A stretch of 40,713 nucleotides of DNA, taken from the IMG/VR virus record IMGVR_UViG_2940228231_000001, positions 1 through 40,713 of that record. One strand, 5' to 3'. A program made the translations under genes and the position numbers. The stretch is from a virus. A model generated the notes under the pieces. It searched no databases. It was not told where the DNA came from and worked only from the letters and a program-made list of their open reading frames with translations. Shown one piece after another: positions 1 to 38,616 of the stretch. The stretch's first letter is position 1, and each line of letters starts with the position of its first letter.

Positions 1-25
1 TTGGTGCGCCATTAGGGACTCGAAC
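1..25 (-). repeat. att core, left copy (displaced 3' end of a tRNA gene)
   Basis: ttggtgcgccattagggactcgaac is identical to 40689..40713. Reverse complement gTTCGAGTcccta-atggcgc-a-CCA reads as T-loop, T-stem 3' half, acceptor 3' strand, discriminator and CCA. Sequence right of position 25 gives only an imperfect T-stem partner, consistent with phage DNA. Confidence 0.85.
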
Positions 26-40
26 ACTAATTTGAGCCAT

Positions 41-138
41 TTCAACACAGTTCACTATGGTTCAATACGGTTCAAATTTCAATGGTTTCAGCGTGTTTTA
101 ATGGTTCATCATGTTTCAACATAGTTCATGGTGTTTCA
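41..138. repeat. Array of ten TTCA motifs (extended consensus ATGGTTCA), mostly exactly 10 bp apart
   Basis: TTCA starts at 41, 51, 61, 71, 78, 87, 105, 115, 125 and 135, read directly from the sequence. The array lies in the non-coding att-proximal arm. Confidence 0.8.
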
Positions 139-155
139 TGCTGTTTTTCGTTTTT

Positions 156-174
156 TGTAGTCAGAAATGTAGTC
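156..174 (+). promoter_or_regulatory. Two TGTAGTC motifs 12 bp apart; candidate integrase arm-type binding sites (left arm)
   Basis: tTGTAGTCagaaaTGTAGTCgaa. The same heptamer pair occurs in the same orientation at 40626..40643 in the other att arm. Confidence 0.45.
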
Positions 175-184
175 GAACTCCTTA

Positions 185-400
185 TCATTCTTCCAATTTT
201 TCAAACAACCCATCTTTGAGTTCAGCCATCTCCTCCGCCAACTTTTCGGTTAACTCCCCAAAGGCAACAAACGCTAACTTGTATGCCTCTGGATCCATTC
301 CACCATAGATTGCCTGATAAAGTGTTTCCTGGATACTGTGGACAGTTGATGCAGCATTGCTTAATTCTTCTACATTAAATGCTAGTTCGTTTTGTTTCAT
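185..400 (-). CDS. Small acidic helical protein of unknown function; stand-alone unit at the prophage end (moron-like)
   Basis: 71-aa ORF with GGAG RBS 7 nt upstream of the ATG. It lies downstream of the lysis-operon terminator and has its own candidate promoter. Confidence 0.6.
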   Translation of the reverse strand: MKQNELAFNVEELSNAASTVHSIQETLYQAIYGGMDPEAYKLAFVAFGELTEKLAEEMAELKDGLFEKLEE

Positions 401-423
401 TGTTATTCTCCTTTTTTAATTTT

Positions 424-451
424 ATAGTAGCATCATAGGAGTTTTTTGCAA
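424..451 (-). promoter_or_regulatory. Candidate sigma-70-type promoter for the 71-aa gene
   Basis: Minus strand reads TTGCAA (446..451), a 16-nt spacer, then TGc-TACTAT (extended -10, 424..429). Confidence 0.45.
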
Positions 452-484
452 TAAAAAAGAGCAAGGCAAATGCCCTGCTCTTTT
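451..484 (-). terminator. Rho-independent terminator ending the late/lysis operon (bidirectional shape)
   Basis: Stem GAGCAAGGC / GCCCTGCTC (one mismatch) with loop aaat. An A-run flanks it on one side and a T-run on the other. On the minus strand the stem is followed by TTTTTTATT. Confidence 0.75.
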
Positions 485-505
485 AATTTGACTTTTATTA
501 TTGCG

Positions 506-1237
506 TTAAATCTTTTCTACATATTTTTCGGTGATATTGCACCAGCCATTTTCGGTGTATCCCCAAGTTTTGTCCGTATTGTGATCTCGGATATTTAAGG
601 TGGTTCCCTTTTTGTACGAACCAGTAATCTTAAAAGATGTTCCTGGGCCAGTACGGATATTGAGTTTTCCTTTGGTTTTACATTTCTCCAGAACCTTCAA
701 CCCCTCAACAGCCTCAGAAGTCTGAGTCAACTCCTCACGAAGTTTTTTCCATTTAGTCGTCTCTACATATGGCAATGGACAAAGTTTGCCGTTGACGTCA
801 AAATGACGTACAACCTTGTCATCCTTGATTCCATATTTCTTCTGTAGCGACTGAACCAGTTCAGCAGTGTTTTTGATTGTTGCGTCAGTAATATATATTT
901 TACCACTTTTTTTCTTGCAACACATTTCAATGCTAATGCTGTTTTTGTTTGTGCATTTTCCGAAAAGCTTTCCGCCATATTTTGCGTAAGGGCTGCCCTG
1001 GTCTAATAATCCGCTAGAGCCTACTGCCCATGCAGCGTTTTTGTCTTCAACAGACTGCCATATACTTGTGTCATCCACAAAGTAATGAGCTGATGCTTGA
1101 CGGTCACCGCCCGCAAAATAGTCTACGTTATTTTTGGCGGTTGATGTGGTTCCTACGTAGTGGATAACGATATATTTAATATCTCTATTGGTATATTTGT
1201 CATGATTATATTTTGAGATTTTCTTATTGATCTTCAT
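506..1237 (-). CDS. Endolysin: N-acetylmuramoyl-L-alanine amidase (Amidase_2/PGRP-like) with C-terminal SH3-like wall-binding domain
   Basis: YIVIHYVG...SAHYFVD...AAWAVG...SISIEMC...VVRHFDVNGKLCP amidase pattern. The C-terminus GKLNIRTGPGTSFKITGSYKKGTTLNI...WGYTENGWC is SH3_3-like. It is the last gene of the lysis cassette. Confidence 0.9.
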   Translation of the reverse strand: MKINKKISKYNHDKYTNRDIKYIVIHYVGTTSTAKNNVDYFAGGDRQASAHYFVDDTSIWQSVEDKNAAWAVGSSGLLDQGSPYAKYGGKLFGKCTNKNSISIEMCCKKKSGKIYITDATIKNTAELVQSLQKKYGIKDDKVVRHFDVNGKLCPLPYVETTKWKKLREELTQTSEAVEGLKVLEKCKTKGKLNIRTGPGTSFKITGSYKKGTTLNIRDHNTDKTWGYTENGWCNITEKYVEKI

Positions 1238-1529
1238 TCTCTTCTTCCCCTTTTCGATTGTCTAGATAGTTTTCGTCTAAACGTAACATTGCCTTGACGT
1301 GTTCTTTAAAGTTATCTCCCCCAATCGCGGCTTGGGTGAAACTGTTGTTTTTCCAAAATGCTACTAAAGCGGACCCTACAGTAAATCCCAACGTGCATAA
1401 TTGGTAAACAGTCTCCTCTGATAGTTCAAGAGGTGTCCACCCCAAAATAGCACATACCTGATTGAGCAGTGCCACAATTAGTACAATCAATCTAGCGATC
1501 GTTCCTGCTGAAATTTTTCCTTTGTTCAT
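1224..1529 (-). CDS. Holin (phi LC3 / Phage_holin_4_1-like)
   Basis: Two hydrophobic helices (IARLIVLIVALLNQVCAILGW; LCTLGFTVGSALVAFW), then WKNNSFTQAA and a charged C-terminal tail. It sits immediately upstream of and overlapping the endolysin. Confidence 0.8.
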   Translation of the reverse strand: MNKGKISAGTIARLIVLIVALLNQVCAILGWTPLELSEETVYQLCTLGFTVGSALVAFWKNNSFTQAAIGGDNFKEHVKAMLRLDENYLDNRKGEEENEDQ

Positions 1530-1544
1530 TTTTCTTTCCTCCTA

Positions 1545-1769
1545 TTATTTATGATATTCTTCCAAATCTTCAATCCGATGATTTATCACCTTTATCTGTT
1601 CTTCCACTACTGGCATTCGCCGAGCAAAGTCGTTATGTTCCTTGACCTCTTTAGTCAGTTCATCCAACTTGTACTCAGTCAGATTGCTTGACTTCCTGAT
1701 GCCGTATGTTGTTCCCGCAAACATGCCAACCGCAGATATGCCTGCTACTATAATCGGTGTCCAATCCAT
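1545..1769 (-). CDS. Small N-terminally anchored coiled-coil membrane protein (BhlA/UviB-type holin-like)
   Basis: One N-terminal TM (WTPIIVAGISAVGMFAGTTYGI) followed by a charged helical region. It is the first gene of the lysis cassette. Confidence 0.55.
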   Translation of the reverse strand: MDWTPIIVAGISAVGMFAGTTYGIRKSSNLTEYKLDELTKEVKEHNDFARRMPVVEEQIKVINHRIEDLEEYHK

Positions 1770-1803
1770 TCATTTGTCCTCTTCTTCGTTTTTATTTAGC
1801 ATA

Positions 1804-1829
1804 ACAAAAGAGAGCCACCAATGTGACTC
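1804..1829 (-). terminator. Weak candidate terminator/attenuator after the radical SAM gene
   Basis: Minus strand GAGTCAC-attg-GTGGCTC (7 bp with one G-U pair) followed by TCTTTTGTT. Confidence 0.35.
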
Positions 1830-1837
1830 CCTACATA

Positions 1838-3142
1838 TTATCTCTTGCTTAGTTTTTCTAGCATAGCATATTCATCTTCGCCGATGATTGGCACTGCCCA
1901 TTCTTTTGGACAATTCATTGCAAAGATTCTAGGGTCTCCCTGCTTCTTGTAATACTTGTTCCAAAAGTATGCATTTGCAAGAGACGCTGCTTTGTGCATA
2001 TCGCAGATATTGATGACTCTGCTATTCGGCGTACCGTTAACTTGGTAGTTGTACGCTGTACACCAACTGCAACCAGCTCCAATAGGACAGTCAAAACACT
2101 CATCAGTAGATTGACTTTTTCTGGTTATGCAGCCAAGACAACTTAATCGGTCTTTGTGACACTGTGATGGTGCTAGCCCATTATCTACATCTCCAATAAT
2201 GTAAGGCTCTTGATCATCACCAAGACTACTCTCCATGTACCTTAGACACGGATAAAGCACGCCATCTGGGTCACATGCGAGCATCACACCATTTCCACCA
2301 CACCAGTTCTTGTTGTCGCTAGCAGGTAGTTTTTTGTAATTGTCCTCATTAAAAAAGGCATAATAGAGTTCATCCACGTCATTATCAATGACATAATCTG
2401 CAAACTGCTTAAGCTGCTTATATAATTCCTGAGCGTGAGATATTTCCCAACCGTCTTCATATACACAATTAATGTTAATTTCCCTGTATCCAAGGTCTAC
2501 CATATGCTTGCTTGCCTCATAAACATAAGACACATTGGCAGGTGCAACAGTAATCTTGCTTCCCATATAAAAGCCATTGGACATCCAATCTTTGATTGCT
2601 GCCACCGCAATATCATAAGAAGGCTTCCCATCAGGAAACAATCTACACATGTCATGTAGTTCTTTATTCCCATCTAGTGTTACGCTAAACGACATATGAT
2701 TACGGTGCTTGGTTAATACTCGTTGCACCTCTGGGTCATTATATAGTACGCCATTAGAGCAAATTCCAACTCTAAACTTATCTGCCCAAGGGTGATTTAA
2801 TCGCAGCGCCTCACCTCGAAAGTAGTCAACGATTTGGTCTATCAACGTAATCTCAAGTAACGGCTCTCCACCGATAAAGTCCAGTATTATCCCCGGAGAA
2901 GTTACCGGGTCAATATATGACCCGATACCTTTATCTCCGATCAATAACAAATCTACCAGCTTTTTAGCAACGTCTAAACTCATTCTGCGTTTGCCTTTAT
3001 GAGTTTGGTAACAATAACTGCAGGCCAAGTTGCAATCATCGGTTACCTGAAAAGTCACAGATTTTGCAAGCATTCCTGGTGGATATTCCGGGTAAAGCCT
3101 TGCTAACCAGTCGCAGTATTCTTCTACCTTTGGTATTGGCAT
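1838..3142 (-). CDS. Radical SAM enzyme with C-terminal SPASM-type auxiliary Fe-S domain (anSME-like fold; peptide/protein maturase candidate)
   Basis: CNLACSYC is the CxxxCxxC motif, and IGGEPLL is a SAM-binding glycine motif. C-terminal pattern is C-x12-G-x4-C (CGGNGVMLACDPDGVLYPC), then CFDCPIGAGCSWC, then a later Cys. Start overlaps the upstream stop (TAATG), with GAGGAGG RBS. Confidence 0.9.
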   Translation of the reverse strand: MPIPKVEEYCDWLARLYPEYPPGMLAKSVTFQVTDDCNLACSYCYQTHKGKRRMSLDVAKKLVDLLLIGDKGIGSYIDPVTSPGIILDFIGGEPLLEITLIDQIVDYFRGEALRLNHPWADKFRVGICSNGVLYNDPEVQRVLTKHRNHMSFSVTLDGNKELHDMCRLFPDGKPSYDIAVAAIKDWMSNGFYMGSKITVAPANVSYVYEASKHMVDLGYREININCVYEDGWEISHAQELYKQLKQFADYVIDNDVDELYYAFFNEDNYKKLPASDNKNWCGGNGVMLACDPDGVLYPCLRYMESSLGDDQEPYIIGDVDNGLAPSQCHKDRLSCLGCITRKSQSTDECFDCPIGAGCSWCTAYNYQVNGTPNSRVINICDMHKAASLANAYFWNKYYKKQGDPRIFAMNCPKEWAVPIIGEDEYAMLEKLSKR

Positions 3143-3483
3143 TACATGACCTCCTCAAACATACCATTTGTGCGAATTTCGCAGTCACACATCTGTGTAA
3201 CATATAACAGTCTAGTTCGAAAATCGATTTGCCAGTTGACGTTATGATTGCCAAATGTTGGGGCAACATAGCGTTCTGTGATTTCGGCTTTTGCATTTTC
3301 ATAATGCATTTTAGCTTCGATTTGCTTTTTTTCATAGGCCTTAAAGGCTTCTGTTTCAAGTACCAATTCTCCATAATTCGTAATAAGAAACGCTATATTG
3401 TCTTTCGTCATTTCGTTCTCGTAAAACGTCCGTTCTAAGTAACTGATTACTTTTTCATCTATTTTCATTCTAAATTTCTTCAT
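3142..3483 (-). CDS. 113-aa protein of unknown function, translationally coupled to the radical SAM gene (candidate maturase partner)
   Basis: ORF with TAATG overlaps at both ends. No recognisable motif. Helical N-terminal half, with MCDC near the C-terminus. Confidence 0.7.
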   Translation of the reverse strand: MKKFRMKIDEKVISYLERTFYENEMTKDNIAFLITNYGELVLETEAFKAYEKKQIEAKMHYENAKAEITERYVAPTFGNHNVNWQIDFRTRLLYVTQMCDCEIRTNGMFEEVM

Positions 3484-3806
3484 TATTTCGCCCCCATATC
3501 GCCGTCAAACATGATATCAATTTTTTCTTCGTAGTCGTTGATGACCCTAACGTAATCGATAAATCCGGTTAGACTATATACTTTGTCACCTTCTTTTTCG
3601 ACTCCGCCATTTTCTGTCACAATTCTAACCTCTGACGTTTTTGTTTCATCAGCGAATAGCTCTTTTAATTTTGCATCATCTGCTTCTCGTGCCTTTTTAC
3701 CTGCAATCGATATAACTGTTCTTGCACCATCAGTTCCAAAATATCCGTTTGAAAATCTGATGTTAGTAATTTCCACCTGTGTTTTGTCTTTAAATATTAA
3801 TTTCAT
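3483..3806 (-). CDS. 107-aa protein of unknown function in the Cys-repeat/rSAM cassette
   Basis: GGAGGG RBS 7 nt upstream of the ATG. Starts 3 nt after the stop of the Cys-rich gene. No recognisable motif. Confidence 0.7.
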   Translation of the reverse strand: MKLIFKDKTQVEITNIRFSNGYFGTDGARTVISIAGKKAREADDAKLKELFADETKTSEVRIVTENGGVEKEGDKVYSLTGFIDYVRVINDYEEKIDIMFDGDMGAK

Positions 3807-3809
3807 TTT

Positions 3810-4325
3810 TTATCCCTCCAAATTATTTTTAACTGTAACTGTTGATTGCCCACTGCATGTGTTAAAACATGTAGATGAGCATTGGCCCAAGCAACTGCTT
3901 TTACAATCACCTGCGCATCCTGTATTGCAACTACCACCGCAGCCATCACTACATCCCGAACACCCGCTGCATGCTTGACATCCCGTACAAGTTCCTGAGC
4001 AACTGCTACAGCTTGATGAACAAGCTCCGCCGCAGCCAGAACAGCCTGTGCAGCCTCCACAGCCAACCATACATGCTGCAGTGCAACCTTGACACCCTCC
4101 GGTGCATGAGGCAGTGCAACCTTGACACCCTCCGGTGCATGAGGCCGTACAGCCTGGCGAACATCCGATCCCACAACCCGTGCAGCCTCCTGAGCAAGTG
4201 CCCGAACATCCAGTGCAATCCTTAGTACATGCTGCGGTACAGACGCCCAAGCAACCAGTGCATGGTCCGCAACCGAGGCACGTACCTTTGCACGCTCCCG
4301 AACACGTTGACGATGAACACGCCAT
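3810..4325 (-). CDS. Hyper-cysteine repeat protein: 171 aa with 43 Cys, spaced almost exclusively CxxC/CxxxC, rest mostly G/S/T/A
   Basis: Start set at the internal ATG (MACSSSTCSGAC...), preceded by AAAGGAG plus 7 nt. The longer 195-aa ORF has no RBS. The Cys-repeat pattern is paralogous to the C-terminus of the upstream gene. Confidence 0.7.
   Translation of the reverse strand: MACSSSTCSGACKGTCLGCGPCTGCLGVCTAACTKDCTGCSGTCSGGCTGCGIGCSPGCTASCTGGCQGCTASCTGGCQGCTAACMVGCGGCTGCSGCGGACSSSCSSCSGTCTGCQACSGCSGCSDGCGGSCNTGCAGDCKSSCLGQCSSTCFNTCSGQSTVTVKNNLEG
4081..4146. repeat. Tandem 2 x 33-bp repeat (32/33 identical) inside the Cys-repeat gene
   Basis: gtgcaaccttgacaccctccggtgcatgaggc(a/c) occurs twice, encoding two copies of the 11-aa unit CTASCTGGCQG. 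Confidence 0.9.
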
Positions 4326-4339
4326 ATATTTTCTCCTTT

Positions 4340-4807
4340 CTACACCATCGTGCTGCTTGCACATGCTGTTCCACATGTTGCCGTGCAGCCTTGGCATCCA
4401 CTATCGCAAGCGCCTGAGCACCCGTTGCATCCACCGATGCAACTTCCAAAACACAGACCACTACATGCACCTCTGCATGAGCTAGTCTCACCTTCTATCG
4501 ATTCACTCGATATCAAATCCAAGTAATCATCTAAACTATTTACTGATGGAAGCGGTTCACCTTTTCGAACAAAACTTGCCTCCTGGTCTTCTACTGCATA
4601 GAGAATATTTATGGTTTTTTCCCCATGTTCGGCAAGAACTCTCGAACCCTTTTCTGGGACTTCTACAAAATCGTATTCTTCCTCACTGAATTCTCTCAGT
4701 GAACCAAAATCAATCGGTTCTTCGTCTTGGTCAAGTCCTGCTAGCGAACGTCTTTCCATTTCGGCTTTCACTCTTTGTTTTATCGCCTTAAATTCATCGG
4801 CTGTCAT
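4340..4807 (-). CDS. Bipartite protein: acidic N-terminal domain of about 108 aa plus 47-aa C-terminal tail with 11 Cys (CxxxC/CxxC)
   Basis: GGGGGTGAG RBS. The ATG is 4 nt after the tail-fibre stop. C-terminus is SSCRGACSGLCFGSCIGGCNGCSGACDSGCQGCTATCGTACASSTMV. Confidence 0.75.
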   Translation of the reverse strand: MTADEFKAIKQRVKAEMERRSLAGLDQDEEPIDFGSLREFSEEEYDFVEVPEKGSRVLAEHGEKTINILYAVEDQEASFVRKGEPLPSVNSLDDYLDLISSESIEGETSSCRGACSGLCFGSCIGGCNGCSGACDSGCQGCTATCGTACASSTMV

Positions 4808-4811
4808 ATGC

Positions 4812-6161
4812 TCACCCCCATACAGATGTTACCGTAACCCATTCTGAGCCATCATAATACTTAGCAACGCCAAAGGTTGCAGTATCAATCCAAAGCACGT
4901 TGGTTTTCTCTGGTTGAGTTTCGCTGACGATTACGCCGCCACCCGAAAAATTTGCTAATGCGTTAGCAATCACCTTATTTTTAACTGCATTATCTGAAGT
5001 AGTTGACAATTCATCGTCTAAAATGACTGTAGCATCACTGCCTGCTGGTCCGCGTTCTCCTTGAATTCCTTGTAATCCTTGAGGCCCTGTGTCGCCCTTT
5101 TCTCCTTTTTGCCCTTGTATACCTTGTTCGCCTTTAGGACCTTGTACTCCAGTATCTCCCTGTTCTCCCTTCTCGCCCTTTTCTCCTTTAACTCCCTGCG
5201 GTCCTCTATCTCCAGTATCTCCTTTTTCACCTTTTGCTCCCTTTAATGGGCCATTATTAACCCAAACGTTATTCAATCCATCAAATATGTAAATATCATA
5301 CGGAGCTATAACCCCAATGCTATAAGCGTCTCCAGTTGTAGGACTCGTTACTGATGAGTCGAGCAAATCTACTGTTGTAAAGTGACCTAGTATCTGAAAT
5401 CCATCACCTTTTGGACCTTGTTCACCCTGTATTCCCTGATCACCTTTCTCGCCCTTTGGTCCTGGGACACCTTGTTCTCCTTGCGCACCCATCGGGCCTT
5501 GTTCTCCAGTATCTCCTGGTTCTCCAGGCAATCCTTTAGAACCCTGTGGCCCTTGTTCTCCACGTGGTCCTTTTAACATTTCCAACTGCTCACTTGTAAA
5601 GTCGGCGAAAGTAAATGGATCTCCTTTGTCGCCTTTCATGAACCCGAAATCATGTCTTTTACCAGCTTTTGTGATAACAATTAAATGTTGATTTTCATCA
5701 ATGATAATTGTTTCAATGCTTTCTGCCAGTACTTGATTTGATTTCTCAGTTGATGCAATTAGCATGTCAATAATTTGTTCATAGATATCTTCTGTCGGAG
5801 GTTCAATAGTCTTTCCAGCAATGTATCCTCCATTAACCAATACTGGAAATGGCAAGCATTCCATATCCGCATCTTCTCTGACGGTCGAAATTACTTCGCC
5901 ATTCATCATACCTACAACAGAACATACGAACCCACCCTGCTTTATCACTTCCCACGGAATTAGGCATTCGTCATTTACTAACAACTGATATTTCTTGATG
6001 CCATTTCGCTCAAATATTGCCGTTTTGCACATGCCTGCCCATTCCGGAGAAAACTTGAACACTGCATTCAAGTAGTTTTTGCTTCCTGCAGCAAGTATCC
6101 GTTTTTCTTTGCATGAAGCATGCTGTCCGTTTATTTCAAAATGTACATTTACCATCAACAT
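4812..6161 (-). CDS. Collagen-like tail fibre protein
   Basis: Two long G-X-Y tracts ([57 protein letters not shown] and [67 protein letters not shown]). C-terminal VLWIDTA...KYYDGSEW module. The true start is probably the ATG at 6155, which has better RBS spacing. Confidence 0.85.
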
Positions 6162-6195
6162 TCTCCTTTCATCATTTTCATTATCATAACGTAAT

Positions 6196-6219
6196 GTAGG
6201 GAGACTTTCGCCTCCCTAC
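6196..6219 (-). other. Perfect 8-bp stem-loop between the giant gene and the fibre gene (no T-tract)
   Basis: GTAGGGAG-n8-CTCCCTAC, starting 3 nt after the stop of the 2811-aa gene. Confidence 0.4.
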
Positions 6220-6221
6220 TC

Positions 6222-9200
6222 TTAGTTGCCATATGCGATTTTCTTTGCACCTTCAATTAAAGCATTAACTTTCCAGTTGTAGTCATCATGATAGTCATAA
6301 GCATCTGCGTAAGCACGATCCATTCTACCAACACGAATGTAGCTGGCTATTTCATATACAGCTAGGTTACGCTTCTTTCCAAGGATATAGTCATAATCAA
6401 CTCCGTATTCTTCCATTGTATTGATGACTTCATACGCTGTGCCTAAATCCTCATTCTCAAGGGCATCGTCACAAGCACCACCAAGTGCCGTCTTAACTTT
6501 CTTGTCAACAGACTCTCTATCTACACCTGCATCAATTAACCTGCTAGCTTCTGATTCTATCTTGTCAGCATCATTGCTTTCCAATGCCGTCTTAAATTCC
6601 TTTGAGAATGCCTTTGAAATCCTGCCACCAATATATTCAGAGTCAACACCATTAGCCTTCATGTCATCTTCAATCATTCTAGCAACATCCATATCTCCAT
6701 TTTTCATCGCCTTGATGTAGTATGCCATGAACTTTGGTCTGTTTTCTTCCAGGGTGATATCATATCTGTATTTCGCAGATAAGTATCCAATGTACTCCTC
6801 AGCTACAAAACACTTTGCAATTTGCTTTGCAGCAGCTTCAGCGTCTCTTGTTACATTGCCTAACGGAATTCCTGTAACAGAACTGATTGCAGAGGCCATT
6901 AACTTTGTCTTTTCGTATATTGTGTATTTGTCAGAACTCCACATTTTAATAGAATTCACTAGGTCTGCAATGCCATCCATATCCATTCTCGACACTTCAA
7001 ACCCTTGTGCCATAGAGCTAACATCACGGAGCAGTGGCAATAGGTTTGCTGGATTTGCATTATCAATAAAGTTTTCTAGGATGTAGTTTTGCCATCTTTC
7101 TAAATAATCTTTGTCGTCATCATCCTCACCTCTTGCTCTAAGTGCATCAATCAGTGCTGCTGCCATTGATACTGCAACTGCATTTGCCACATATACGCTT
7201 GTCACTCGTGACACTCTAGCTGCAGCACCTTTTTTATTGCCGTTTTTAAAGTCTTTCCCTGCTAGTACAAGCTCTGTACGCATCATGTTGAATGTTTTTG
7301 TAGGCTCTGCCATGAATGATGTAATCATCTTGCTTGCTAAGTCTTGGCTACGCATAATTTGCGATCTATGGAATACCGAGTCAACTACTTGAGTACGGTC
7401 AACCACATACGAGAACCGTTCGTTAACAGCTTTCCAATATGCATCCGTTCCGGGCTTCAAATCTTTTCGCTTAGAATTAATTTCTTTCTTAACACCGCTC
7501 CATATTGTTGCCCATGTAATGTCATCGGCCTTTCCGTACATTTCCATGAACAATGTATCGACAATGTTTCGCTTGCCAATGAAGATATCTCTCATGCTTC
7601 TGGAAACATCAGTGTTATAAAAACCCCAACTTTTCCACCTTGCAATCTGACAATGCTCTTGCATTTCTTTTAAGCTAATCTTTCCTGGAGTCATAAGATA
7701 TGCAGGATTTATCACTGTTGCCGCTCTAACAATAGCAGTAGGTTGTTGTACCAACACTCTAAGATTTGCTCCAATTTTTGCCTTTTTGTAATTCGCAAGT
7801 AACTTATTGGACAGATTAGTGTCGTTGTTTCTAGCATGATTCTGATTTACGTCATTAACAAACCTGCGAATGTAATTGTTCACGTTGTCACCAAATGATT
7901 GTTGAATGCTTTTCTGCACTGTGGCCGATATTTTCCCGTCACTATTTCTTTGCTTGTAATTATATACTCGTTCAAAATCAGTGAGTGCAGGGACTAATGA
8001 GTTGTACATGGACATCGTATTCACGTGCTGTGTAAATACATTAAAGATATCGTCAACCACAATTGGGTTGTTCGCTTTCATTACAGTATTTTTTGTAAAT
8101 CCTACATTCTTAATCTTAGATGCCTGAACTTTGTCGAAACTCTCATCAAGGAAAGCATCTGAAGATTTAATCGGGAAATAGTGTTTTTCAGTAAACTTCT
8201 TGTACCCATATAGTTTCATAGAAGTTTCGTTACCCCACTCAGAACAGGTAGTCCCCATGAAACTCTGTAGCTCATCAGCGACCTTTTTCTGTTCTGCAGT
8301 AAGACTACCAATGATTCTTTTTACATCATCAATTGTTGGCATTACTTGTGCGTCTGACAATCTGCGCTTCGCAAATGATTTTGTCAGCTTCTGTCTAGTC
8401 TTGTCTACCACCCCAATTGGCGATGCAGTTATTCCAGAACCAAGGATATGATCCACAGCTTGTTCTCTGTTCATTAAGCAATAAAGCGACATGACCTGTG
8501 ATGGTACTAACTCTATAATTCCTCCGTTTTCTAAAGTGAACTTTTTTGCTCTTGCATTATCATCAATCCATTTCTTCACTTTGTACTTCTTAGCAAGCTC
8601 GGCAATAAAATCTTTGCCCTGCGATACATTATCAATATGCTTATCAAATCCACGTCTCATATTTTGGTAAAGCTCAAACATCTTCCCACCAACAGTTTCA
8701 AACATATCAATCGGATTGATATTTGTTTCATTGAAGAACCTATTAATTTCGCCTCTGAATCCTTCATACTGTTTCTTGGCTTTCATGGTTGCGTTGTCTG
8801 CAATTATGGTATCTCCATACTCTGAAATACTTTCTTTTAGGCCGTCACTGAAAGTTTTATTCATTGTGGACAGTGAGAAGCGAATATGCTTAATTAACCG
8901 ATACACTTGCTCAAGCTCATCAATGGACAGGTCCGAAAATCTTTTCCCATCTAGCTCCGCACTGAGTATGCTAAGCGCATCTTGTATACTCTCATCAATC
9001 TCAATGGTGGAATCTTCATTCTTTGCTAGCTTCTCATATTCATTTCTGAGTTCAGCCAGTTTCATTGTTCTTCGAGATGGGCCATACTTCCGCGTCCAGT
9101 TATCTGTCCTTGTCGTGCTAAAATCGAATCCAGACAGCATTGTAGCAATAGCCTTTGCGTATCCATGAGGGATATGTTTTGTCTCTGTTGGTCTCAACAA

Positions 9201-12200
9201 GCTTTCAGACATCCACTGAGTATAGGCTTCGATTCTTGAAGTGTAGTATTTCTTTTCTTTCTTGTCTTTATTCTGTTGCTTAATATCATTGATTTTATTC
9301 TTATAAAACTCATCTTTCTTATCAAGTCTAGACTTCATACGTTCTTTCTGTTTTTTCATCAAAGCATTTCTCTCAGCTTTTACTTTATCAACAGCCTTCA
9401 TCTTTTCCTCATGTTTTAGATCCGCAAATGTTTTTTTCTGCGCCAAGTCATATGACATCTGCAACACATCTTTCGCAATCGTATCCCTGAACTCAGCTAT
9501 CTCACCTTCTGAATATTCCTCCACATAAGGTTTAATACTTTCAACCACTTCCAGGATATTGTAAAGCTGGTCTACTTCATTTGTGTATTCCTGAGCATCA
9601 AACACTCCTGGATGTGTTTCAGCTAGCTCTTGATAAAAGGTATCAATCGGAATGCCTGAGTTCTTGGATAGTTTTACAATTCCGAAATGTGATTTTCTCA
9701 GTTCATTGAAATCGTCGATATCATTCCAATAGTTTTCACTGAGCCTCAAAGTTGTTTTCCTTAAGGTGTCACGCAATCCCTTGTAATCCGTCCACATTTC
9801 GTCATGAAGTATTTCCATTTTGTCCGTGATTTTATCCGCTACATTAAGGCATAAATCATCAATAAGGTTCCAGTTCCCTTCAGGTTTTCGCATCTCCGCA
9901 AAGACTTGTTTCACATCAGTCATTACACTTTCGTGCAAAATGCCATTGCGCTTGCCAAGATATGCTTCAATTAGTCTTGAGACCGCAATCCCAGTCTGTT
10001 TTGGTTCTGGTTCGGCAAACTTAGACCTCTTGAATTCCGCTTTTAATTTTTTATTGGTTTTTTCTAGCTCAGACACCTTCTGTTTTAGGTTGTCACTATC
10101 ATCCTTAATCTGGAATTTTCCTACATCTGAAACAATCTCATTTATTGTCAAACTATTGACATCATTCAGTTGTTGGAGTAAACTAAATAAAGAAGCAGTG
10201 TTGCCTCCGCGAGTACTTCCCGATTGGGTCGCCGCGGTCTTGGAAGGCACGCTGTTTTTTTGTACCATCTCAAGTTCATGAAGGTAATAACCTTGATATG
10301 CACTAGAAGTATCTCTATTTACAACAACCCCAACATAATAATCATCCATTCTAGTTGTTATTAGATTCCAAATTTTTATTGGAGCTGACAAAACAATAGT
10401 ATCATAGCCCCGCATCTTCCAGTTGTAATGTGCATCAATAATTTTTCCATTTTCAATCACTTCTGTAAGAGACTTAAATGCAACTGCCTTCATTCTCCCC
10501 ACTCCGTGACCTATCGATGATTTCACTCCTTTGTGCTCAAGAGAAATATCTCCGAGCACTGGATGATGCACTTCATTCCCAATGCTATCAAAATAATCTG
10601 ATACCTGAGTAACTAAGTCGATCTGACCCTTGGCAAACTCTTTACCTGTGAGCGTAGTCACTGGGTTCATCTCTGTCACGGCTTTCATGTTAGCGAGCAC
10701 TTGTGTCTTATCTATGTTAAATCTCTTGATTTCACTTTCTTTCATCTGATATCTGATGTCTGTGTCAGTTGTGGGATTTTCGTTCGCTACAGACTTAATC
10801 TGCTCCGAATAGAACGGAATTACAACAGTGTGAATGTCTCCACCGTTTTTCCCACCTTGGTCAATAATCCCATCATACCCTTTATCTTTTAAATAAGCCG
10901 TGATTGCATCTGGTATTGAAGTCCATGCATGAGTTGTGCCTTTTTCTATATCTCTTTCAAGACTCTCTACCCATTCTAGTGGATTACGATTTCTTTTATC
11001 CCACATATCAGAATTGGCGGATTCGCTTTCGTAAACTGACAAGTCAGCAGATTCAAGCCAAGTTTTTAAATCAGCTATTAAGGATTGATCGATATCTGCA
11101 GTTGACATAGGATTGACTACATTTAAATATGTTTCATATACTTTTTCATCTCTTAAATACGGGTCGTTATAGTATACGCCTTCTACTCCTGCAAGCTCAA
11201 GTACTTCCATGAACCTTGATTCCTCATTGATTAAGTCTCCACTATTAAGCCAAGAATCAACCAATGCCTGTAATGCGTTCCCTTTTGCATATCTAAGGTC
11301 ATAAGAACCATTCCCAATATTATTGCCTGGAATAGTAATAATGTTTTCTACATCGTCATCAAATGCGATTTCCTTAGCCTTAGTTTTAATCTCTTCTCTT
11401 TCTGCATTAGACAACTTCCCCCACAATTCGACAATGCTCATATCTTTCCCATTGTAATTAATACGGAATTGTGTTTCATATGAGTCATATTCGTTATCAT
11501 AATTAATAGATGTGTCTTGCTTATCCTTGCTGTAGTTATCAGCAATATCCTTGTTGTCAGTAAAAAAAGCCATTGGTCCACTTGTAGCACGTTCAGGGTC
11601 AAAATAGTTTCCTACTCTATCTGCTCTTGATGTCCCATGATACATAACCTTGAGATGCCCATTATTATCACGCACTTTGGATTTTTTGAAGTATTCAGCT
11701 TGATTCTCTGATAAAGAATTGCCTTCATTATCTTTAAGTGAATACTTCTCTTTTGTCTCGGATACTGCTTTCACACCAATGCTCTCATTCAAAGCTTTAG
11801 CCCAAAGCGACTGCGCTTCTTCCACAATCCCAAGTGCCTCAAGCCAGTCACCCTTCTTGTTTCCTGATGCCATTCTATGCAGCGTGTCCAACAATGCCCT
11901 AATACCGTCAACCAATTTTTCAGCTAACGAACGATTTTCATTAACTAATGACTCAATCATGTCCACATCTTTAAAGAAAACATCTGTAGCGTCTGCAAGT
12001 AATTCATCTTCAGCCTGAGACACAGTAAGGTCTACACCGTTTCTTGCGTATCTATCAATCATGCCTCTAATCTTAGCATCATATTTTTTCTGGTCAGCTT
12101 CATAAAACTTTTTGAATACAAATTGCTTCAATTCATTATATGCTTCTGGTGCTGTCTCCTGCAGGTTATGTGTTAATTCATGTTTAAGCACATCAAAGAT

Positions 12201-20445: not shown

Positions 20446-21426
20446 TTATGCGAATACTGCGGTTGAAGTACCTAGCCATGCTGTTCCATTCCAATACTTC
20501 AGAGCGTTGCCATTTGCCGTATCAATCCACAACACTGTAGTATCCTCTGGTGCAGTAGCCTGCACTATGTAGCAAGGACTATTAATCTCAAAATTCCCAT
20601 CCTCTGTACCGATAAACATACGCTTGTCATCTTTAGCATAGCCAAGCTCACCATCGCTTAAGACTGGCATGTTCTCGCTCAGTCCTCTCTGAATCTTAAC
20701 TGTTTTGTTTTCTGTACCGATAAACTCTCCACAGTCAATGAGTCTTAGTGCTTCATCCAGGTTAGTCTTAGTAACTACCGAAGACAAATCCACCTCGCCT
20801 ATGTCTGAAGCTGCACTCATAAACAGATCGTACCAATTCTTCACGTTGTTGACGTAAGACTGTGCCTGTTCGATAGCCTTTTTCGCCTGTGCTAATATGC
20901 CTGACGTTTCGCTCACTCTTGACGCTTCTGCCATTTGACGTAATTGTTCAGCCACTATTCTCATCTGCTCAGATTCAATGATATTTGAGTTCTGCGCAAT
21001 AAGCTGCTGAAGTATTGGATATTCAGATTTACTAAGAATGTCATCTCCCTGACCTTCATCCATGCTCTCAGAAACATAGTAGTTAAACCTTGCAGTAGTT
21101 ACCTTAGTACCATTAGAAAATATGGACAATGCCACAAAGTGCATACCCTTAACTAGAGCGCATTGTGGCTGCAACGTGAATGCTACAAGTCCATCAGCTG
21201 CATCAATTACATCTAAATATCCACCATTCCCATCAACATACACTGTTCCATCAGGCTTGAGCACCTCAATAATGACGTTAGAGTAACCAGTGAAGTCAAA
21301 TGGAGCTGTGCCATCAAGAATATTTATGTTGAAAAGATTGCCTGTATCGTATTGGATAACACCATTTATTACTTTGGCATTATTATCCTTAACCGATACA
21401 GCTATGTTAAATTCTTTTTTATTCAT
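20446..21426 (-). CDS. 326-aa BppU-N-like (baseplate upper protein-like) tail protein with C-terminal LWIDT module
   Basis: N-terminus VINGVIQYDTGNLFNINILDGTAPFDFTGYSNVIIEVLKPDGT is BppU_N-like, followed by a central coiled coil. C-terminus is TTVLWIDTANGNALKYWNGTAW. Confidence 0.7.
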   Translation of the reverse strand: MNKKEFNIAVSVKDNNAKVINGVIQYDTGNLFNINILDGTAPFDFTGYSNVIIEVLKPDGTVYVDGNGGYLDVIDAADGLVAFTLQPQCALVKGMHFVALSIFSNGTKVTTARFNYYVSESMDEGQGDDILSKSEYPILQQLIAQNSNIIESEQMRIVAEQLRQMAEASRVSETSGILAQAKKAIEQAQSYVNNVKNWYDLFMSAASDIGEVDLSSVVTKTNLDEALRLIDCGEFIGTENKTVKIQRGLSENMPVLSDGELGYAKDDKRMFIGTEDGNFEINSPCYIVQATAPEDTTVLWIDTANGNALKYWNGTAWLGTSTAVFA

Positions 21427-37917: not shown

Positions 37918-37944
37918 TAAGATACAATGAATGGAGGAGATAGA

Positions 37945-38616
37945 ATGAATGTTCCTATTGGTGAAAGAATAAGAATCCTAAGGACTGGTCTCAATATAAC
38001 ACAAGAAGAATTAGGAAATAAGGTGGGAGTGCAACGTGCTGCTATCAACAAATATGAAAAAGGTGTAGTGTCTAACATCAAGAGAGATATACAAATTAAA
38101 TTAGCAGATGCATTGTGTATTGATCCTGCGACACTATTTTATGATGAAGAATTTATGCCAGAACTATATTCTGTTGCCTTGGAAAAATCAATTCCTGTGA
38201 TTGACAATAGACAATTAAGTGCCGTGCGAATTCCAGTATTGGGACGAGTTCAGGCTGGTATACCTGTAGATGCAATCGAAGAAATACTTGACTGGGAAGA
38301 AATCACCCCAGCGATGGCTCAAAACGGAACACATTTCGCTCTACAAATAAAAGGAGATAGTATGGCACCTAGGATTACTGAAGGAGATGTTGTAATCGTC
38401 CGTCAGCAAAGCGATATTGAATGTGGCGATGTGGCAGTAATTATTGTAAATGGAAACGATGCCACAATTAAAGAAGTGAAGAAATATGATGAGGGTGGAA
38501 TAACGCTGGTCCCTTTCAATCCGTCATATCCTGTAAAACGATACTCTGAAGAAGACGTGAAATCCCTCCCTGTTGAAATATTAGGAAAAGTGATTGAACT
38601 AAGAGCGAAATTTTAA
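37945..38616 (+). CDS. CI-type repressor: XRE HTH plus LexA/S24 autopeptidase domain
   Basis: ITQEELGNKVGVQRAAINKYEKG is the HTH. LGRVQAGIPV holds the Ala-Gly cleavage site (38254..38259). GDSMAP is the Ser nucleophile and ATIKEVKK the Lys. Start set at the ATG after GGAGGAGA. Confidence 0.9.
   Translation: MNVPIGERIRILRTGLNITQEELGNKVGVQRAAINKYEKGVVSNIKRDIQIKLADALCIDPATLFYDEEFMPELYSVALEKSIPVIDNRQLSAVRIPVLGRVQAGIPVDAIEEILDWEEITPAMAQNGTHFALQIKGDSMAPRITEGDVVIVRQQSDIECGDVAVIIVNGNDATIKEVKKYDEGGITLVPFNPSYPVKRYSEEDVKSLPVEILGKVIELRAKF

What the first reader, a model, noticed from the sequence alone, without database searches (positions are those of the whole stretch)
3810..4325. 171-aa protein with 43 cysteines (25 percent Cys), no leader, 11-residue periodicity: possible cross-linked solenoid/needle
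Seen in sequence: from MACSSSTC to FNTCSGQ every Cys is separated by 2 or 3 residues, with one 4-residue gap. The gaps are almost only G/S/T/A/Q. There is no hydrophobic core and no N-terminal leader, only a short non-Cys C-terminal tail (STVTVKNNLEG).

An exact 11-aa unit CTASCTGGCQG is duplicated by a 2 x 33-bp tandem DNA repeat (4081..4146). That implies recent expansion and possible copy-number variability.

Inference: the composition and period recall Cys-ladder beta-solenoids such as the beetle antifreeze protein (12-residue TCT repeats), and also metallothionein-like metal/Fe-S binding. Given the adjacent rSAM enzyme and fibre gene, a thioether-laddered rod is an attractive hypothesis. 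A metal-binding or decoy role is equally open.
Basis: partly seen in the sequence, partly recalled or inferred. Interest (0 to 1): 0.75.

Follow-up and report, generated by a model that had tools for sequence, protein, structure and literature searches.

The report
Phage cysteine-repeat protein, radical-SAM substrate
This is a real but mis-annotated phage gene: the repeat-only half of a split "CXXX-repeat" protein encoded next to the tail fibre gene, and the predicted substrate of the radical-SAM cross-linking enzyme three genes downstream. The family is already in curated databases, but I found no experimental work on it.

Summary
A minus-strand ORF at 3810-4325 encodes 171 aa with 43 Cys, spaced by 2 or 3 residues with one gap of 4. 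It has a strong ribosome-binding site and an exact 2 x 33-bp tandem duplication. A global 11-residue periodicity is not supported.

The Cys frame is the one under purifying selection. The public record instead calls a wrong-frame ORF here and names it an "enterochelin permease".

The rSAM gene at 1838-3142 is an equivalog-level member of NCBIfam TIGR04115, "radical SAM peptide maturase, CXXX-repeat target family" (496 bits, cutoff 350).

In dozens of Bacillota phages the same module directly follows a tail-fibre gene. Its usual target is one chain: a ~105-aa helical N-domain, then 19-145 Cys repeats, sometimes followed by a variable C-terminal globular domain.

In the window's clade that gene is split into a 155-aa protein (N-domain plus 11 Cys) and this leaderless 171-aa protein.

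Most likely it is a substrate for thioether cross-linking and ends up in the tail-fibre apparatus. The chemistry is inferred from PapB, CteB and QhpD; the virion location is inferred from gene order. Neither is shown. The beetle-antifreeze and metallothionein analogies gained no support.

This is a new variant of a known but experimentally uncharacterised kind.

The parts
3810..4325 (-). Leaderless CXX(X)-repeat protein: 171 aa, 43 Cys. It is the detached repeat-only part of the rSAM target.
   Evidence: anatomy; purifying selection in this frame; orthologues of 150-261 aa with 37-64 Cys in L003-L015 and L095-L100; aligns end to end with residues 286-433 of the 442-aa unsplit protein of L098.
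4078..4145 (-). Exact 33-bp tandem duplication (2.1 copies) encoding CTASCTGGCQG twice.
   Evidence: A similar 33-nt tandem array arose independently in L013.
4340..4807 (-). 155-aa partner: a ~108-aa helical N-domain ('lead' domain) followed by 11 Cys repeats (SSCRGACSGLCFGSCIGGCNGCSG...).
   Evidence: 43 homologue clusters; alignments; AF2: N-domain pLDDT 57-84, Cys tail below 50; no fold match in the PDB; start motif shared with the unsplit proteins.
4812..6161 (-). Collagen-like tail fibre protein of 449 aa, ending ...[27 protein letters not shown]. Its stop codon lies 4 nt before the 155-aa gene.
   Evidence: collagen repeats, PHROG tail-fibre families; the same C-terminal motif on the gene upstream of the module in about 20 other loci; spacing.
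3483..3806 (-). 107-aa conserved accessory protein (family A3), function unknown.
   Evidence: It follows the leaderless gene in the window, L009-L015 and L095-L100, lies after the rSAM in other clades, and is absent from L003-L006. Only weak PHROG hits.
3142..3483 (-). 113-aa conserved accessory protein (family A2), placed immediately before the rSAM in nearly all Bacillota loci. It is a candidate stand-alone substrate-binding partner.
   Evidence: co-occurrence; the rSAM lacks CteB's N-terminal ~70-95 residues; hhalign to a TIGR04116 member gives only 11% probability, so homology is not shown.
1838..3142 (-). Radical SAM/SPASM maturase of 434 aa, TIGR04115 'CXXX-repeat target family'.
   Evidence: 496 bits against a cutoff of 350; next best PapB family 163 bits, SCIFF maturase 116, QhpD 96; closest solved structure CteB 5WGG, E 8e-23; CX3CX2C and seven SPASM Cys invariant across seven homologues.
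1809..1832 (-). Terminator-like hairpin (10-bp stem followed by a T-run) just after the rSAM stop codon. It closes the fibre-to-rSAM gene block ahead of the lysis genes.
   Evidence: The gaps between the six genes are 4, 14, 3, -1 and -1 nt.

Best explanation
The 171-aa ORF is a real, translated phage late gene. It is the repeat-only C-terminal portion of a CXXX-repeat protein that, in this phage clade, has been split into two cistrons: a 155-aa 'lead domain + 11 Cys' protein and this 171-aa '43 Cys + short tail' protein.

Both are the predicted substrates of the radical SAM/SPASM maturase encoded three genes downstream (TIGR04115). They are probably assisted by the 113-aa protein that always precedes the enzyme.

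By homology with the nearest characterised enzymes (PapB, CteB, QhpD), the maturase most likely uses the Cys thiols to make intramolecular thioether (S-C) bridges within or between C-[ST]-G-[GST] units. That would turn a flexible Gly/Ser/Thr/Cys chain into a cross-braced stalk that does not depend on redox state.

The whole block is co-transcribed with the tail fibre gene, and the product most likely becomes part of the tail-fibre apparatus rather than a diffusible peptide.

Shown: the gene is real; the enzyme belongs to the family; the synteny holds; the split holds; repeat length is polymorphic.
Inferred: thioether chemistry (about 0.55), virion or fibre location (about 0.45), and the way a leaderless chain is recognised (unknown).
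For: 1. The gene is real. Codon-position analysis gives 32 synonymous against 10 nonsynonymous changes, the ribosome-binding site is strong, and orthologues occur in L003-L015 and L095-L100.
2. The enzyme hits TIGR04115 at 496 bits against a cutoff of 350. The CX3CX2C motif and the SPASM cysteines are invariant.
3. Co-occurrence is strict. All loci recovered with the rSAM or with the lead domain carry Cys-repeat ORFs next to the enzyme. 77 of 78 viral loci have a lead-domain protein, and nearly all have A2 and the rSAM within 4 kb.
4. The gene is split. Unsplit relatives (L016 473 aa with 95 Cys, L018, L019, L026 650 aa with 145 Cys, L098 442 aa with 86 Cys) begin SSSCRGAC(S/T)GLC like the 155-aa protein. 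They end ...C(F/Y)..C..QC(F/Y)G.A.., like the ...CFNTCSGQSTV end of the 171-aa protein. The 171-aa protein aligns colinearly with residues 286-433 of the 442 in L098. The split loci are the closest rSAM relatives (61-73% identity, against 53-56% or less for unsplit ones).
5. Thioether chemistry. The next-best models are PapB (163 bits), the SCIFF maturase (116) and QhpD (96), all Cys-thioether formers. The closest solved structure is CteB.
6. Structural role.
   - The target gene directly follows a tail-fibre gene (phrog_7037 and others), often one ending in the same LWIDT...KYYNG..W..VWG motif.
   - The genes are tightly packed or overlapping, with a terminator only after the rSAM.
   - There is no protease or exporter in the block.
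   - Targets reach 650 aa.
   - In a gut-phage clade, otherwise near-identical loci carry 0, about 136 or about 190 extra residues as a variable C-terminal globular domain after the Cys run. That is the layout of an anchor, shaft and head fibre protein.
   - The module occurs in both podovirus-like and baseplate-bearing phages, always beside fibre genes.
Against: - No experiment on any member of this family was found in the held literature. The reaction product is unknown.
- The 171-aa protein does not itself score against TIGR04114 or TIGR04117. Membership rests on context and on orthologues that do score (L003: 28 bits against a cutoff of 20).
- AF2 gives no structure, so a 'rod' is conjecture.
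- The N-domain has no structural match to any known fibre-attachment or adaptor domain. The variable C-terminal domains have no match to known receptor-binding domains.
- NCBIfam's own names treat these targets as RiPPs.
- The Bacteroidota branch uses short Tat-signal precursors outside phages, which fits an exported peptide or protein rather than a virion part.
- No virion proteomics are available.
Confidence: 0.7

Rival explanations
1. It is a classical RiPP. The ~105-aa N-domain of the 155-aa protein is a large leader, the Cys-repeat regions are cores, and the modified product is released at lysis as a bacteriocin, signal or other diffusible effector. On this reading it is a phage 'moron', not a virion part.
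For: - The enzyme belongs to a family NCBI names a peptide maturase, and sister models are named rSAM-modified Cys-rich RiPPs.
- Its nearest characterised relatives make ranthipeptides.
- The Bacteroidota branch has several short precursors (83-130 aa) per locus, each with an N-terminal signal. That is typical of RiPP clusters.
- Large protein-like leaders are known in other RiPPs (title and abstract of PMC12537861, listed).
Against: - There is no leader peptidase, exporter or immunity gene in the block.
- There is no promoter or terminator separating it from the fibre gene.
- Cores of 160-540 residues are far outside the usual RiPP size.
- Some relatives have a C-terminal globular domain after the repeats, and others put the conserved domain at the C-terminal end instead.
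- The position directly after tail-fibre genes is invariant across unrelated phage types.
Confidence: 0.17
2. It is a metal- or Fe-S-binding protein, metallothionein-like or polyferredoxin-like. The Cys thiolates stay free and coordinate metal, and the rSAM has another role or loads the cofactor.
For: - The protein is 25% Cys, with stretches such as CTGCSGCGGAC that have ferredoxin-like CX2CX2CX3C spacing (read directly from the sequence).
- Bacteroidota relatives carry twin-arginine signals (62 of 66). From general knowledge, the Tat pathway typically exports folded, cofactor-bearing proteins.
Against: - There is no Pfam or NCBIfam match to a metallothionein or ferredoxin family.
- The dominant CX3C spacing and the conserved middle Gly do not match known cluster-binding motifs.
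- Strict genetic linkage to a SPASM-type peptide maturase, whose relatives consume Cys thiols in thioethers, is not explained.
- Tat export is explained equally well by a cross-linked cargo that cannot be unfolded.
Confidence: 0.08
3. It is an unmodified disulfide- or Cys-laddered beta-solenoid, like the Tenebrio antifreeze protein, that folds on its own.
For: High Cys content with regular spacing and small side chains. This is a resemblance only.
Against: - No 11- or 12-residue periodicity.
- No Thr-Cys-Thr ladder motif.
- AF2 mean pLDDT is 39.8 with no strands.
- The protein is made in the cytoplasm of a strict anaerobe with no signal peptide, where disulfides are not expected (general knowledge).
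- This reading ignores the conserved rSAM linkage.
Confidence: 0.03
4. It is not a gene. The true product is the wrong-frame 123-aa ORF (3803-4174, minus strand) that the GenBank record annotates as 'ABC-type enterochelin transport system permease subunit'. Otherwise the region is a non-coding low-complexity repeat.
For: The public record calls that frame. Low-complexity GC-rich sequence leaves long ORFs open in several frames.
Against: - In the two same-strand alternative frames, one of which holds the annotated ORF, window-versus-L009 differences are 1-3 synonymous against 38-39 nonsynonymous. In the Cys frame they are 32 against 10.
- Gene callers pick inconsistent frames, or none, in L011, L012 and L014 for the same gene.
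- The Cys frame has a canonical ribosome-binding site and a conserved MA(C/T) start in all orthologues.
Confidence: 0.02

Closest known systems
NCBIfam/TIGRFAMs 'CXXX repeat peptide modification system': TIGR04115 rSAM maturase, TIGR04114 Cys-rich repeat, TIGR04116 associated protein, TIGR04117/04118 target families, TIGR04119 second maturase
   Same: The rSAM scores 496 bits against TIGR04115, cutoff 350. The targets are runs of C-X2-3 units beside the enzyme. Orthologues and paralogues of the 171-aa protein reach the TIGR04114 cutoff (L003: 28 bits against 20).
   Different: - The target is split into a lead-domain piece and a leaderless repeat-only piece.
- The 171-aa protein itself does not score against any target model.
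- The small partner (113 aa) is not recognised by TIGR04116.
- There is no TIGR04119 second maturase.
- The module is embedded in a phage tail-fibre operon, and some relatives carry a variable C-terminal globular domain.
- I found no published experiment on the family.
PapB/PapA (freyrasin), the ranthipeptide system of Paenibacillus polymyxa
   Same: PapB is the best-scoring characterised rSAM/SPASM family (NF047865, 163 bits). From my own knowledge, its substrate also has short repeated Cys-X3 units, and PapB makes one thioether per unit.
   Different: The score is below the family cutoff of 340. From my own knowledge, PapA is a small precursor peptide whose acceptor is Asp in CX3D. Here Asp is rare (3 of 171 residues) and the units are C-[ST]-G-[GST]. 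PapB/PapA is not phage-borne.
CteB/SCIFF (thermocellin), PDB 5WGG/5WHY
   Same: It is the closest solved structure (E 8e-23), with the same rSAM core plus SPASM domain. It forms a Cys thioether.
   Different: The alignment covers query residues 25-338 against CteB 95-406. The N-terminal peptide-binding (RRE) domain of CteB therefore has no counterpart here. SCIFF has 6 Cys in about 45 aa, against 43 Cys in 171 aa.
QhpD/QhpC (gamma subunit of quinohemoprotein amine dehydrogenase)
   Same: The rSAM/SPASM relative TIGR03906 scores 96 bits. From my own knowledge, QhpD cross-links a protein subunit, not a cleaved peptide, through Cys-Asp/Glu thioethers. The cross-linked chain stays as a structural part of a complex and is exported after modification.
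   Different: QhpC has three cross-links in about 80 aa with no repeat array. It is a bacterial periplasmic enzyme component, not a phage protein.
T2/S16-type gp38 tail-fibre tip adhesin (analogy from my own knowledge, not tested)
   Same: Both are encoded directly after the fibre gene. Both have an N-terminal attachment domain followed by a Gly-rich repeat region with variable segments.
   Different: There is no sequence or fold similarity. gp38 needs no rSAM and has few Cys. This is a working analogy only.
Tenebrio molitor antifreeze protein and metallothioneins
   Same: High Cys content with short regular spacing.
   Different: There is no family hit, no 12-residue period, no predicted solenoid, and no explanation for the rSAM linkage.

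Membership tests
TIGR04115 CXXX-repeat-target rSAM system (system level) | The radical SAM/SPASM enzyme scores above the curated equivalog cutoff. | tested here: met
   496 bits against a cutoff of 350, covering the full-length model 1-359. CX3CX2C and seven SPASM Cys are invariant in the alignment of seven homologues.
TIGR04115 CXXX-repeat-target rSAM system (system level) | A protein with a run of Cys-X-X-X repeats is encoded next to the enzyme. | tested here: met
   There are two: 155 aa with 11 Cys and 171 aa with 43 Cys, within 1.7 kb on the same strand. The same holds at all related loci.
TIGR04114 / TIGR04117 / TIGR04118 target-protein models | The target protein scores above the model cutoff. 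| tested here: not met
   The 171-aa protein has no hit even at E <= 10, and neither does the 155-aa protein. The L003 orthologue reaches 28.1 bits against TIGR04114, cutoff 20. The miss is probably a composition or bias-filter effect, but formally the test is not met.
TIGR04116 CXXX repeat peptide modification system protein | A small (~90-aa) associated protein matches the model. | tested here: not met
   The 113-aa protein and its homologues give no hit at E <= 1. hhalign to a true member (the L002 91-aa protein, 104.6 bits) gives 11% probability, with only an NW(E/Q)I(N/D)F motif aligned. The size and the position beside the rSAM are similar.
TIGR04119 CXXX repeat peptide maturase (second SPASM protein) | A second maturase gene is present in the cassette. 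| tested here: not met
   It is present in the Bacteroidota-type locus L002 (235 bits). No such ORF lies between the fibre and the lysis genes in the window.
Ranthipeptide / sactipeptide RiPPs | rSAM-installed Cys S-to-carbon thioether bonds. | not testable with these tools
   Only homology to PapB, CteB and QhpD supports this. Mass spectrometry or NMR is needed.
Ranthipeptide / sactipeptide RiPPs | A leader peptide is recognised by an RRE and removed, releasing a small peptide product. | tested here: inconclusive
   The 171-aa chain has no leader. The enzyme lacks the N-terminal RRE region of CteB. There is no protease in the block. Related targets reach 650 aa and may carry C-terminal domains. 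Cleavage itself cannot be tested here.
Phage tail fibre / receptor-binding accessory protein | It is encoded in the tail-fibre module of the late operon. | tested here: met
   It lies 4 nt after the collagen-like fibre gene, with no terminator until after the rSAM. The upstream gene is a tail fibre in the window and in seven of the ten upstream genes scanned from related loci.
Phage tail fibre / receptor-binding accessory protein | It is physically present in the virion. | not testable with these tools
   No proteomics or structure is available. There is no similarity to known virion proteins beyond a weak PHROG hit for the 107-aa neighbour (E 0.0025).
Insect antifreeze beta-solenoid / metallothionein | A family profile match, or a 12-residue TCT repeat or known metal-binding Cys pattern. 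| tested here: not met
   No Pfam hit, no lag-11 or lag-12 periodicity, and AF2 mean pLDDT 39.8.

The most novel reading that the evidence does not exclude
Phages of strictly anaerobic gut Bacillota build part of their tail-fibre apparatus from a protein whose shaft is a ladder of radical-SAM-installed thioether rings: tens to more than a hundred per chain, 43 Cys here and up to 145 in relatives.

This would be RiPP-type chemistry used to make a redox-proof, protease-resistant structural protein in a cytoplasm where disulfides cannot form. In the window's clade the shaft is a separate leaderless polypeptide, which would have to be recognised in trans or become covalently joined to its 155-aa partner.

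It would be the first radical-SAM-matured virion structural protein, and the most heavily cross-linked ribosomal product that I know of.
Probability: 0.35. Interest if true: 0.85.

Novelty: new variant of a known kind. Interest (0 to 1): 0.62.

Why it matters
- **An uncharacterised but common system.** The enzyme-target pair is recognised by curated database models, yet I found no experiment on it. The modification, the product and the biological role are all open.
- **What it would show if the structural reading is right.** Phages would be using RiPP-style radical chemistry to harden receptor-binding appendages. That bears on phage host-range engineering in gut anaerobes, on stable cross-linked protein scaffolds, and on rSAM enzymes that act on very long substrates, possibly processively.
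- **A practical annotation problem.** These genes are systematically mis-called. The record for this contig annotates a wrong-frame ORF as an 'enterochelin permease', and three related loci show wrong-frame or missing calls. Protein databases therefore under-represent the family, and homology searches with it return little.

Tried and rejected
- **Near-identical phage DNA.** A megablast of window 1-12000 against 50,697 phage records found nothing. The best rSAM matches among phage records are unannotated gut metagenome contigs.
- **Literature.** Seven full-text searches (CXXX repeat, TIGR04115, SPASM + CXXX, rSAM + tail fiber + thioether, phage-encoded RiPP, SPASM + tail fiber, ranthipeptide + prophage) found no study of this system. 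Haft & Basu 2011 is not in the held library. Three papers opened had nothing relevant.
- **Homologue search with the 171-aa protein.** It returned only weak, composition-penalised hits and not the protein itself, because the gene is not called in that frame in the source record.
- **Homologue search with the 113-aa protein.** It found only itself.
- **Programmed frameshift or readthrough fusing the 155- and 171-aa ORFs.** Rejected. The two ORFs are in different frames in the window and L009 but in the same frame in L013 and L003 (coordinates). Each second ORF has its own ribosome-binding site and ATG.
- **Global 11-residue periodicity.** Rejected.
- **AF2 of the 171-aa protein.** No confident fold, so no fold search was run on it.
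- **Fold search of the 155-aa model.** No PDB match; the BFVD matches are only uncharacterised viral proteins with the same leader-plus-Cys layout.
- **Profile and PDB sequence searches** of the 107-aa and 113-aa families and of the variable C-terminal domains: nothing significant.
- **phmmer of the N-domain against 1.84 billion representatives.** Only 36 clusters at E <= 1e-3. One of them is a spurious MucBP adhesin.
- **tRNA at the contig ends.** None found.
Full report
**1. What is in the sequence**

The finding's coordinates hold an ORF on the minus strand (3810..4325). It translates to MACSSSTCSGAC...FNTCSGQSTVTVKNNLEG: 171 residues with 43 cysteines (25.1%). The 42 Cys-to-Cys gaps are 26 of three residues, 15 of two and one of four. 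The residues between the cysteines are 84% G, S, T, A or Q.

An AAAGGAGAA Shine-Dalgarno sequence ends 7 nt before the ATG at 4325. The longer 195-aa reading from 4397 therefore has no support.

Tandem Repeats Finder reports a 33-bp unit, 2.1 copies, 100% identical, at 4078-4145. It encodes CTASCTGGCQG twice.

The claimed 11-residue periodicity does not extend beyond that duplication. The Cys autocorrelation at lag 11 is 19. When the order of the same gaps is shuffled, the mean is 17.3 +/- 3.6. The real unit is 3-4 residues, with consensus C-[ST]-G-[GST] or C-[ST]-G.

**2. It is a real gene, and the public record has it wrong**

The low-complexity, GC-rich DNA leaves ORFs open in several frames. 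I compared the 56 best-conserved C-terminal codons with the orthologue in locus L009.
- 38 of 51 nucleotide differences fall on third codon positions in the Cys frame.
- That frame shows 32 synonymous and 10 nonsynonymous codon changes.
- The two other frames on the same strand show 1-3 synonymous against 38-39 nonsynonymous changes.
- The comparison with L013 gives the same picture.

Eight orthologues of 150-261 aa all hold 24.5-25.7% Cys.

An exact-sequence look-up shows that neither the 171-aa nor the 195-aa product is in a 15-billion-protein collection. The wrong-frame 123-aa ORF (3803-4174, minus strand) is there, as MGF6376843.1, named 'ABC-type enterochelin transport system permease subunit'. 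Gene callers made similar errors in L011 and L014, and called nothing in L012. This explains why a homology search with the protein returned almost nothing.

**3. Context in the window**

The window is the whole 40,713-bp contig of 'Clostridiales Family XIII bacterium PM5-7'. It is a temperate phage.
- Regulation and integration: integrase (39431-40618) and an S24/HTH repressor (37927-38616).
- Structural genes: terminase, portal, major head protein, tail and internal-virion proteins, and a 2811-aa giant protein.
- The two contig ends share 25 identical bases.

On the minus strand the gene order is:
1. collagen-like tail fibre (4812-6161)
2. 155-aa protein (4340-4807)
3. the 171-aa protein (3810-4325)
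4. 107-aa protein (3483-3806)
5. 113-aa protein (3142-3483)
6. rSAM/SPASM enzyme (1838-3142)
7. a terminator-like hairpin (1832-1809)
8. a 74-aa protein, an SPP1-type holin and an amidase endolysin

The gaps between the six genes from the fibre to the rSAM are 4, 14, 3, -1 and -1 nt.

The 155-aa protein has a ~108-aa N-terminal domain followed by SSCRGACSGLCFGSCIGGCNGCSGACDSGCQGCTATCGTAC, which contains 11 Cys.

**4. The enzyme names the system**

Against NCBIfam the rSAM scores 496 bits on TIGR04115, 'radical SAM peptide maturase, CXXX-repeat target family' (equivalog, cutoff 350). The next-best models, all below their own cutoffs, are the PapB ranthipeptide maturase family (163 bits), the SCIFF maturase (116) and QhpD (96).

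The closest solved structure is CteB (5WGG, E 8e-23). The alignment runs from query residues 25-338 to CteB 95-406, so the N-terminal peptide-binding domain of CteB has no counterpart here.

The CX3CX2C motif and seven SPASM cysteines are invariant across seven homologues.

Sister NCBIfam models exist for the other parts of the system: the target repeat (TIGR04114), target families (TIGR04117, TIGR04118), an associated ~90-aa protein (TIGR04116) and a second maturase (TIGR04119). A Bacteroidales-type contig, L002, matches TIGR04116 and TIGR04119 above their cutoffs and the target models only below cutoff.

In the window:
- the 171-aa protein hits none of the target models, even at E <= 10, although its L003 orthologue reaches the TIGR04114 cutoff;
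- the 113-aa protein is not recognised by TIGR04116;
- there is no second maturase.

**5. Comparative genomics**

*Split arrangement.* Searching with the rSAM and with the 155-aa protein gave about 170 loci. The same two-gene arrangement occurs in L003-L006, L009-L015 and L095-L100. It consists of a lead domain with 11-17 Cys, followed by a leaderless protein of 150-261 aa with 37-64 Cys. The leaderless proteins start MA(C/T)..., MSSC... or MSC.... Most end ...CQACSGCSGC..GC...C(F/Y)..C(S/T)G(Q/E)S(T/A).., and L003/L006 end ...CRNQC(F/Y)GQATTPIY.

*Unsplit arrangement.* This is the common form: 72 of 77 viral loci in one scan. A single chain carries the ~105-aa lead domain and then 19 to 145 cysteines in C-X2-3 spacing. 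Total length reaches 650 aa.

*Evidence that the window's pair is a split gene.*
- The unsplit chains begin their repeat region with SSSCRGAC(S/T)GLC, like the window's 155-aa protein.
- They end with ...C(F/Y)..C..QC(F/Y)G.A.., like the ...CFNTCSGQSTV end of the 171-aa protein.
- The 171-aa protein aligns colinearly with residues 286-433 of the 442-aa L098 protein.
- The split loci are also the closest rSAM relatives: 61-73% identity, against 53-56% or less for the unsplit ones.
- The two ORFs are in different frames in the window and L009 but in the same frame in L013 and L003. The second ORF has a strong ribosome-binding site in the window and a conserved N-terminal start in all orthologues. 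A programmed frameshift is therefore unlikely (coordinates).

*Length varies quickly.* L011 and L012 are 426/429 identical over the aligned parts of this gene. They differ by in-frame indels of 126 and 24 nt. L013 carries its own three-fold 33-nt tandem array.

**6. Link to tail fibres**

In Bacillota loci the lead-domain gene lies directly after another gene. That gene is a PHROG tail-fibre protein in the window and in seven of the ten upstream genes scanned from related loci. In about 20 distinct loci it ends with the same ~30-aa motif...(S/T)AP......LWIDT..G...KYYNG..W..V..VWG, although the fibres range from 85 to 843 aa.

The module occurs in the podovirus-like window and in phages with Baseplate_J, sheath-initiator and Mu Gp48-like genes.

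In a large gut-phage clade (L109-L172) the loci are otherwise near-identical. There the lead + 62-Cys protein ends right after ...CQAQAFGAVV or continues into a non-Cys domain of about 136 or about 190 aa. That domain differs between phages and has no PHROG, Pfam or PDB match.

Relatives with the reverse order also exist. In those the Cys run comes first and a ~100-120-aa domain carrying the same D(Y/F)..LK..I..E..RR helix motif comes last.

An N-terminal anchor, a repeat shaft of variable length and an exchangeable distal domain, all encoded next to a fibre gene, is how fibre and receptor-binding proteins are usually built. A leader-core peptide precursor does not look like this. No protease, exporter or immunity gene lies in the block.

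**7. The non-phage branch**

Bacteroidota and Ignavibacteria relatives (38-41% rSAM identity) have one to three short precursors per locus. Of 66 such precursors, 62 carry a twin-arginine motif, SRREFFK. So in both branches the modified product ends up outside the cell. In the Bacteroidota branch it travels by a route that carries folded cargo (general knowledge of Tat).

**8. Structure prediction**

AlphaFold2 on the 171-aa protein (single sequence, so a weak test) gave mean pLDDT 39.8 with no strands.

With a 48-sequence alignment, the 155-aa protein gave a helical N-domain (pLDDT 57-84, pTM 0.62) and a disordered Cys tail. Foldseek found no PDB match. In BFVD it found only uncharacterised viral proteins with the same leader-plus-Cys layout.

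**9. Interpretation**

*Shown.* The ORF is a real, selected, mis-annotated late gene. It is the detached repeat module of a CXXX-repeat protein. Its locus contains an equivalog-level TIGR04115 maturase. The module is syntenic with tail-fibre genes across phage types. Its repeat number evolves quickly.

*Inferred.*
- The maturase makes Cys thioether cross-links. This rests on homology to PapB, CteB and QhpD; I put it at about 0.55.
- The product is part of the fibre apparatus. This rests on gene order and domain layout; I put it at about 0.45.
- The 113-aa protein replaces the missing RRE. This rests on its position only.

How a leaderless chain is recognised is unknown. Candidates are the leader acting in trans, a C-terminal follower sequence, or inter-chain cross-linking.

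*Rivals.*
- A released RiPP effector (0.17).
- A metal or Fe-S binding protein (0.08).
- An unmodified Cys-ladder solenoid (0.03).
- 'Not a gene' (0.02, refuted).

**10. Novelty and score**

The kind is already in curated databases, so this is not categorically new. Seven full-text searches found no experimental work on it. Two features are not part of the family definition: the split, leaderless architecture, and the integration into a tail-fibre operon with an optional distal domain. I therefore rate it a new variant of a known kind, with interest 0.62.

The most novel reading still open is a radical-SAM-matured thioether-ladder shaft in a virion protein. I give it probability 0.35, and interest 0.85 if true.

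Noticed in passing
window 3803-4174 (minus strand): The deposited GenBank annotation calls a wrong-frame 123-aa ORF over the Cys-rich gene and names it 'ABC-type enterochelin transport system permease subunit' (MGF6376843.1). The true 171-aa product is absent from the 15-billion-protein collection. The same gene is called in a wrong frame in L011 and L014 and not called at all in L012.
   Followed up: yes
L013 7634-11029; L014 7811-9973; also L051, L069, L077, L090, L165: The rSAM maturase genes of L013 and L014 are 1131 and 720 aa long and carry Hint/LAGLIDADG (intein-like) hits. That suggests inteins inserted in the phage rSAM gene. Several other loci have rSAM ORFs of 715-795 aa that I did not examine.
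   Followed up: no
window 1-25 and 40689-40713; 39431-40618; 37927-38616: The two contig ends share 25 identical bases. This could be an att core or a circular-assembly overlap. An integrase and an S24/HTH CI-like repressor sit at the right end. The contig therefore looks like a complete temperate phage genome. ARAGORN finds no tRNA.
   Followed up: partly
window 6222-14657 (minus strand): A 2811-aa ORF lies just upstream of the fibre gene. It matches only PHROG 22978 (unknown function, 770 bits). It is probably a giant internal-virion or ejection protein.
   Followed up: no
window 20446-21426 (minus strand): A second fibre-like protein (326 aa, BppU_N domain) ends with the same LWIDT..(K)YWNG..W motif as the collagen-like fibre at 4812-6161. 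The phage therefore has two proteins sharing this C-terminal module.
   Followed up: partly
L042-L094 (Bacteroidota/Ignavibacteria loci): The non-phage branch of the TIGR04115 system encodes one to three short Cys-repeat precursors per locus. Of 66 such precursors, 62 carry a twin-arginine (SRREFFK) signal, so the modified product is probably exported by Tat.
   Followed up: partly
P0044-P0053; L031 4853-5671; L032 7921-8919; L034 7014-8003; L036 7160-7906: Reverse-topology relatives exist. The Cys run comes at the N-terminus and a ~100-120-aa domain follows. In the P0044-P0053 proteins (sequences read) that domain carries the same D(Y/F)..LK..I..E..RR helix motif as the 'lead' domain. This argues against a simple cleaved-leader role.
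   Followed up: partly
L109-L172, e.g. L140 3968-5599, L114 3980-5431, L124 3980-5059: In a large gut-phage clade with otherwise near-identical loci, the lead + 62-Cys protein has no extra C-terminal domain, or one of about 136 aa, or one of about 190 aa. The domain is unrelated between phages and has no PHROG, Pfam or PDB match. This looks like exchange of a receptor-binding head.
   Followed up: partly
L107/L108 3044-3865 and 3998-4948: Two tandem paralogues of the full lead + Cys-repeat protein (273 aa with 46 Cys, and 316 aa with 57 Cys) occur in one phage.
   Followed up: no
L026 3336-5288; L016 3867-5288: The family has extreme members: 650 aa with 145 Cys (an uninterrupted run of 144) and 473 aa with 95 Cys. 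Both sit next to TIGR04115-type rSAM genes.
   Followed up: no
window 5058-5525 (minus-strand fibre gene): The tail-fibre gene contains several imperfect 9-, 18- and 27-bp tandem arrays that correspond to its collagen-like G-X-Y repeats.
   Followed up: no
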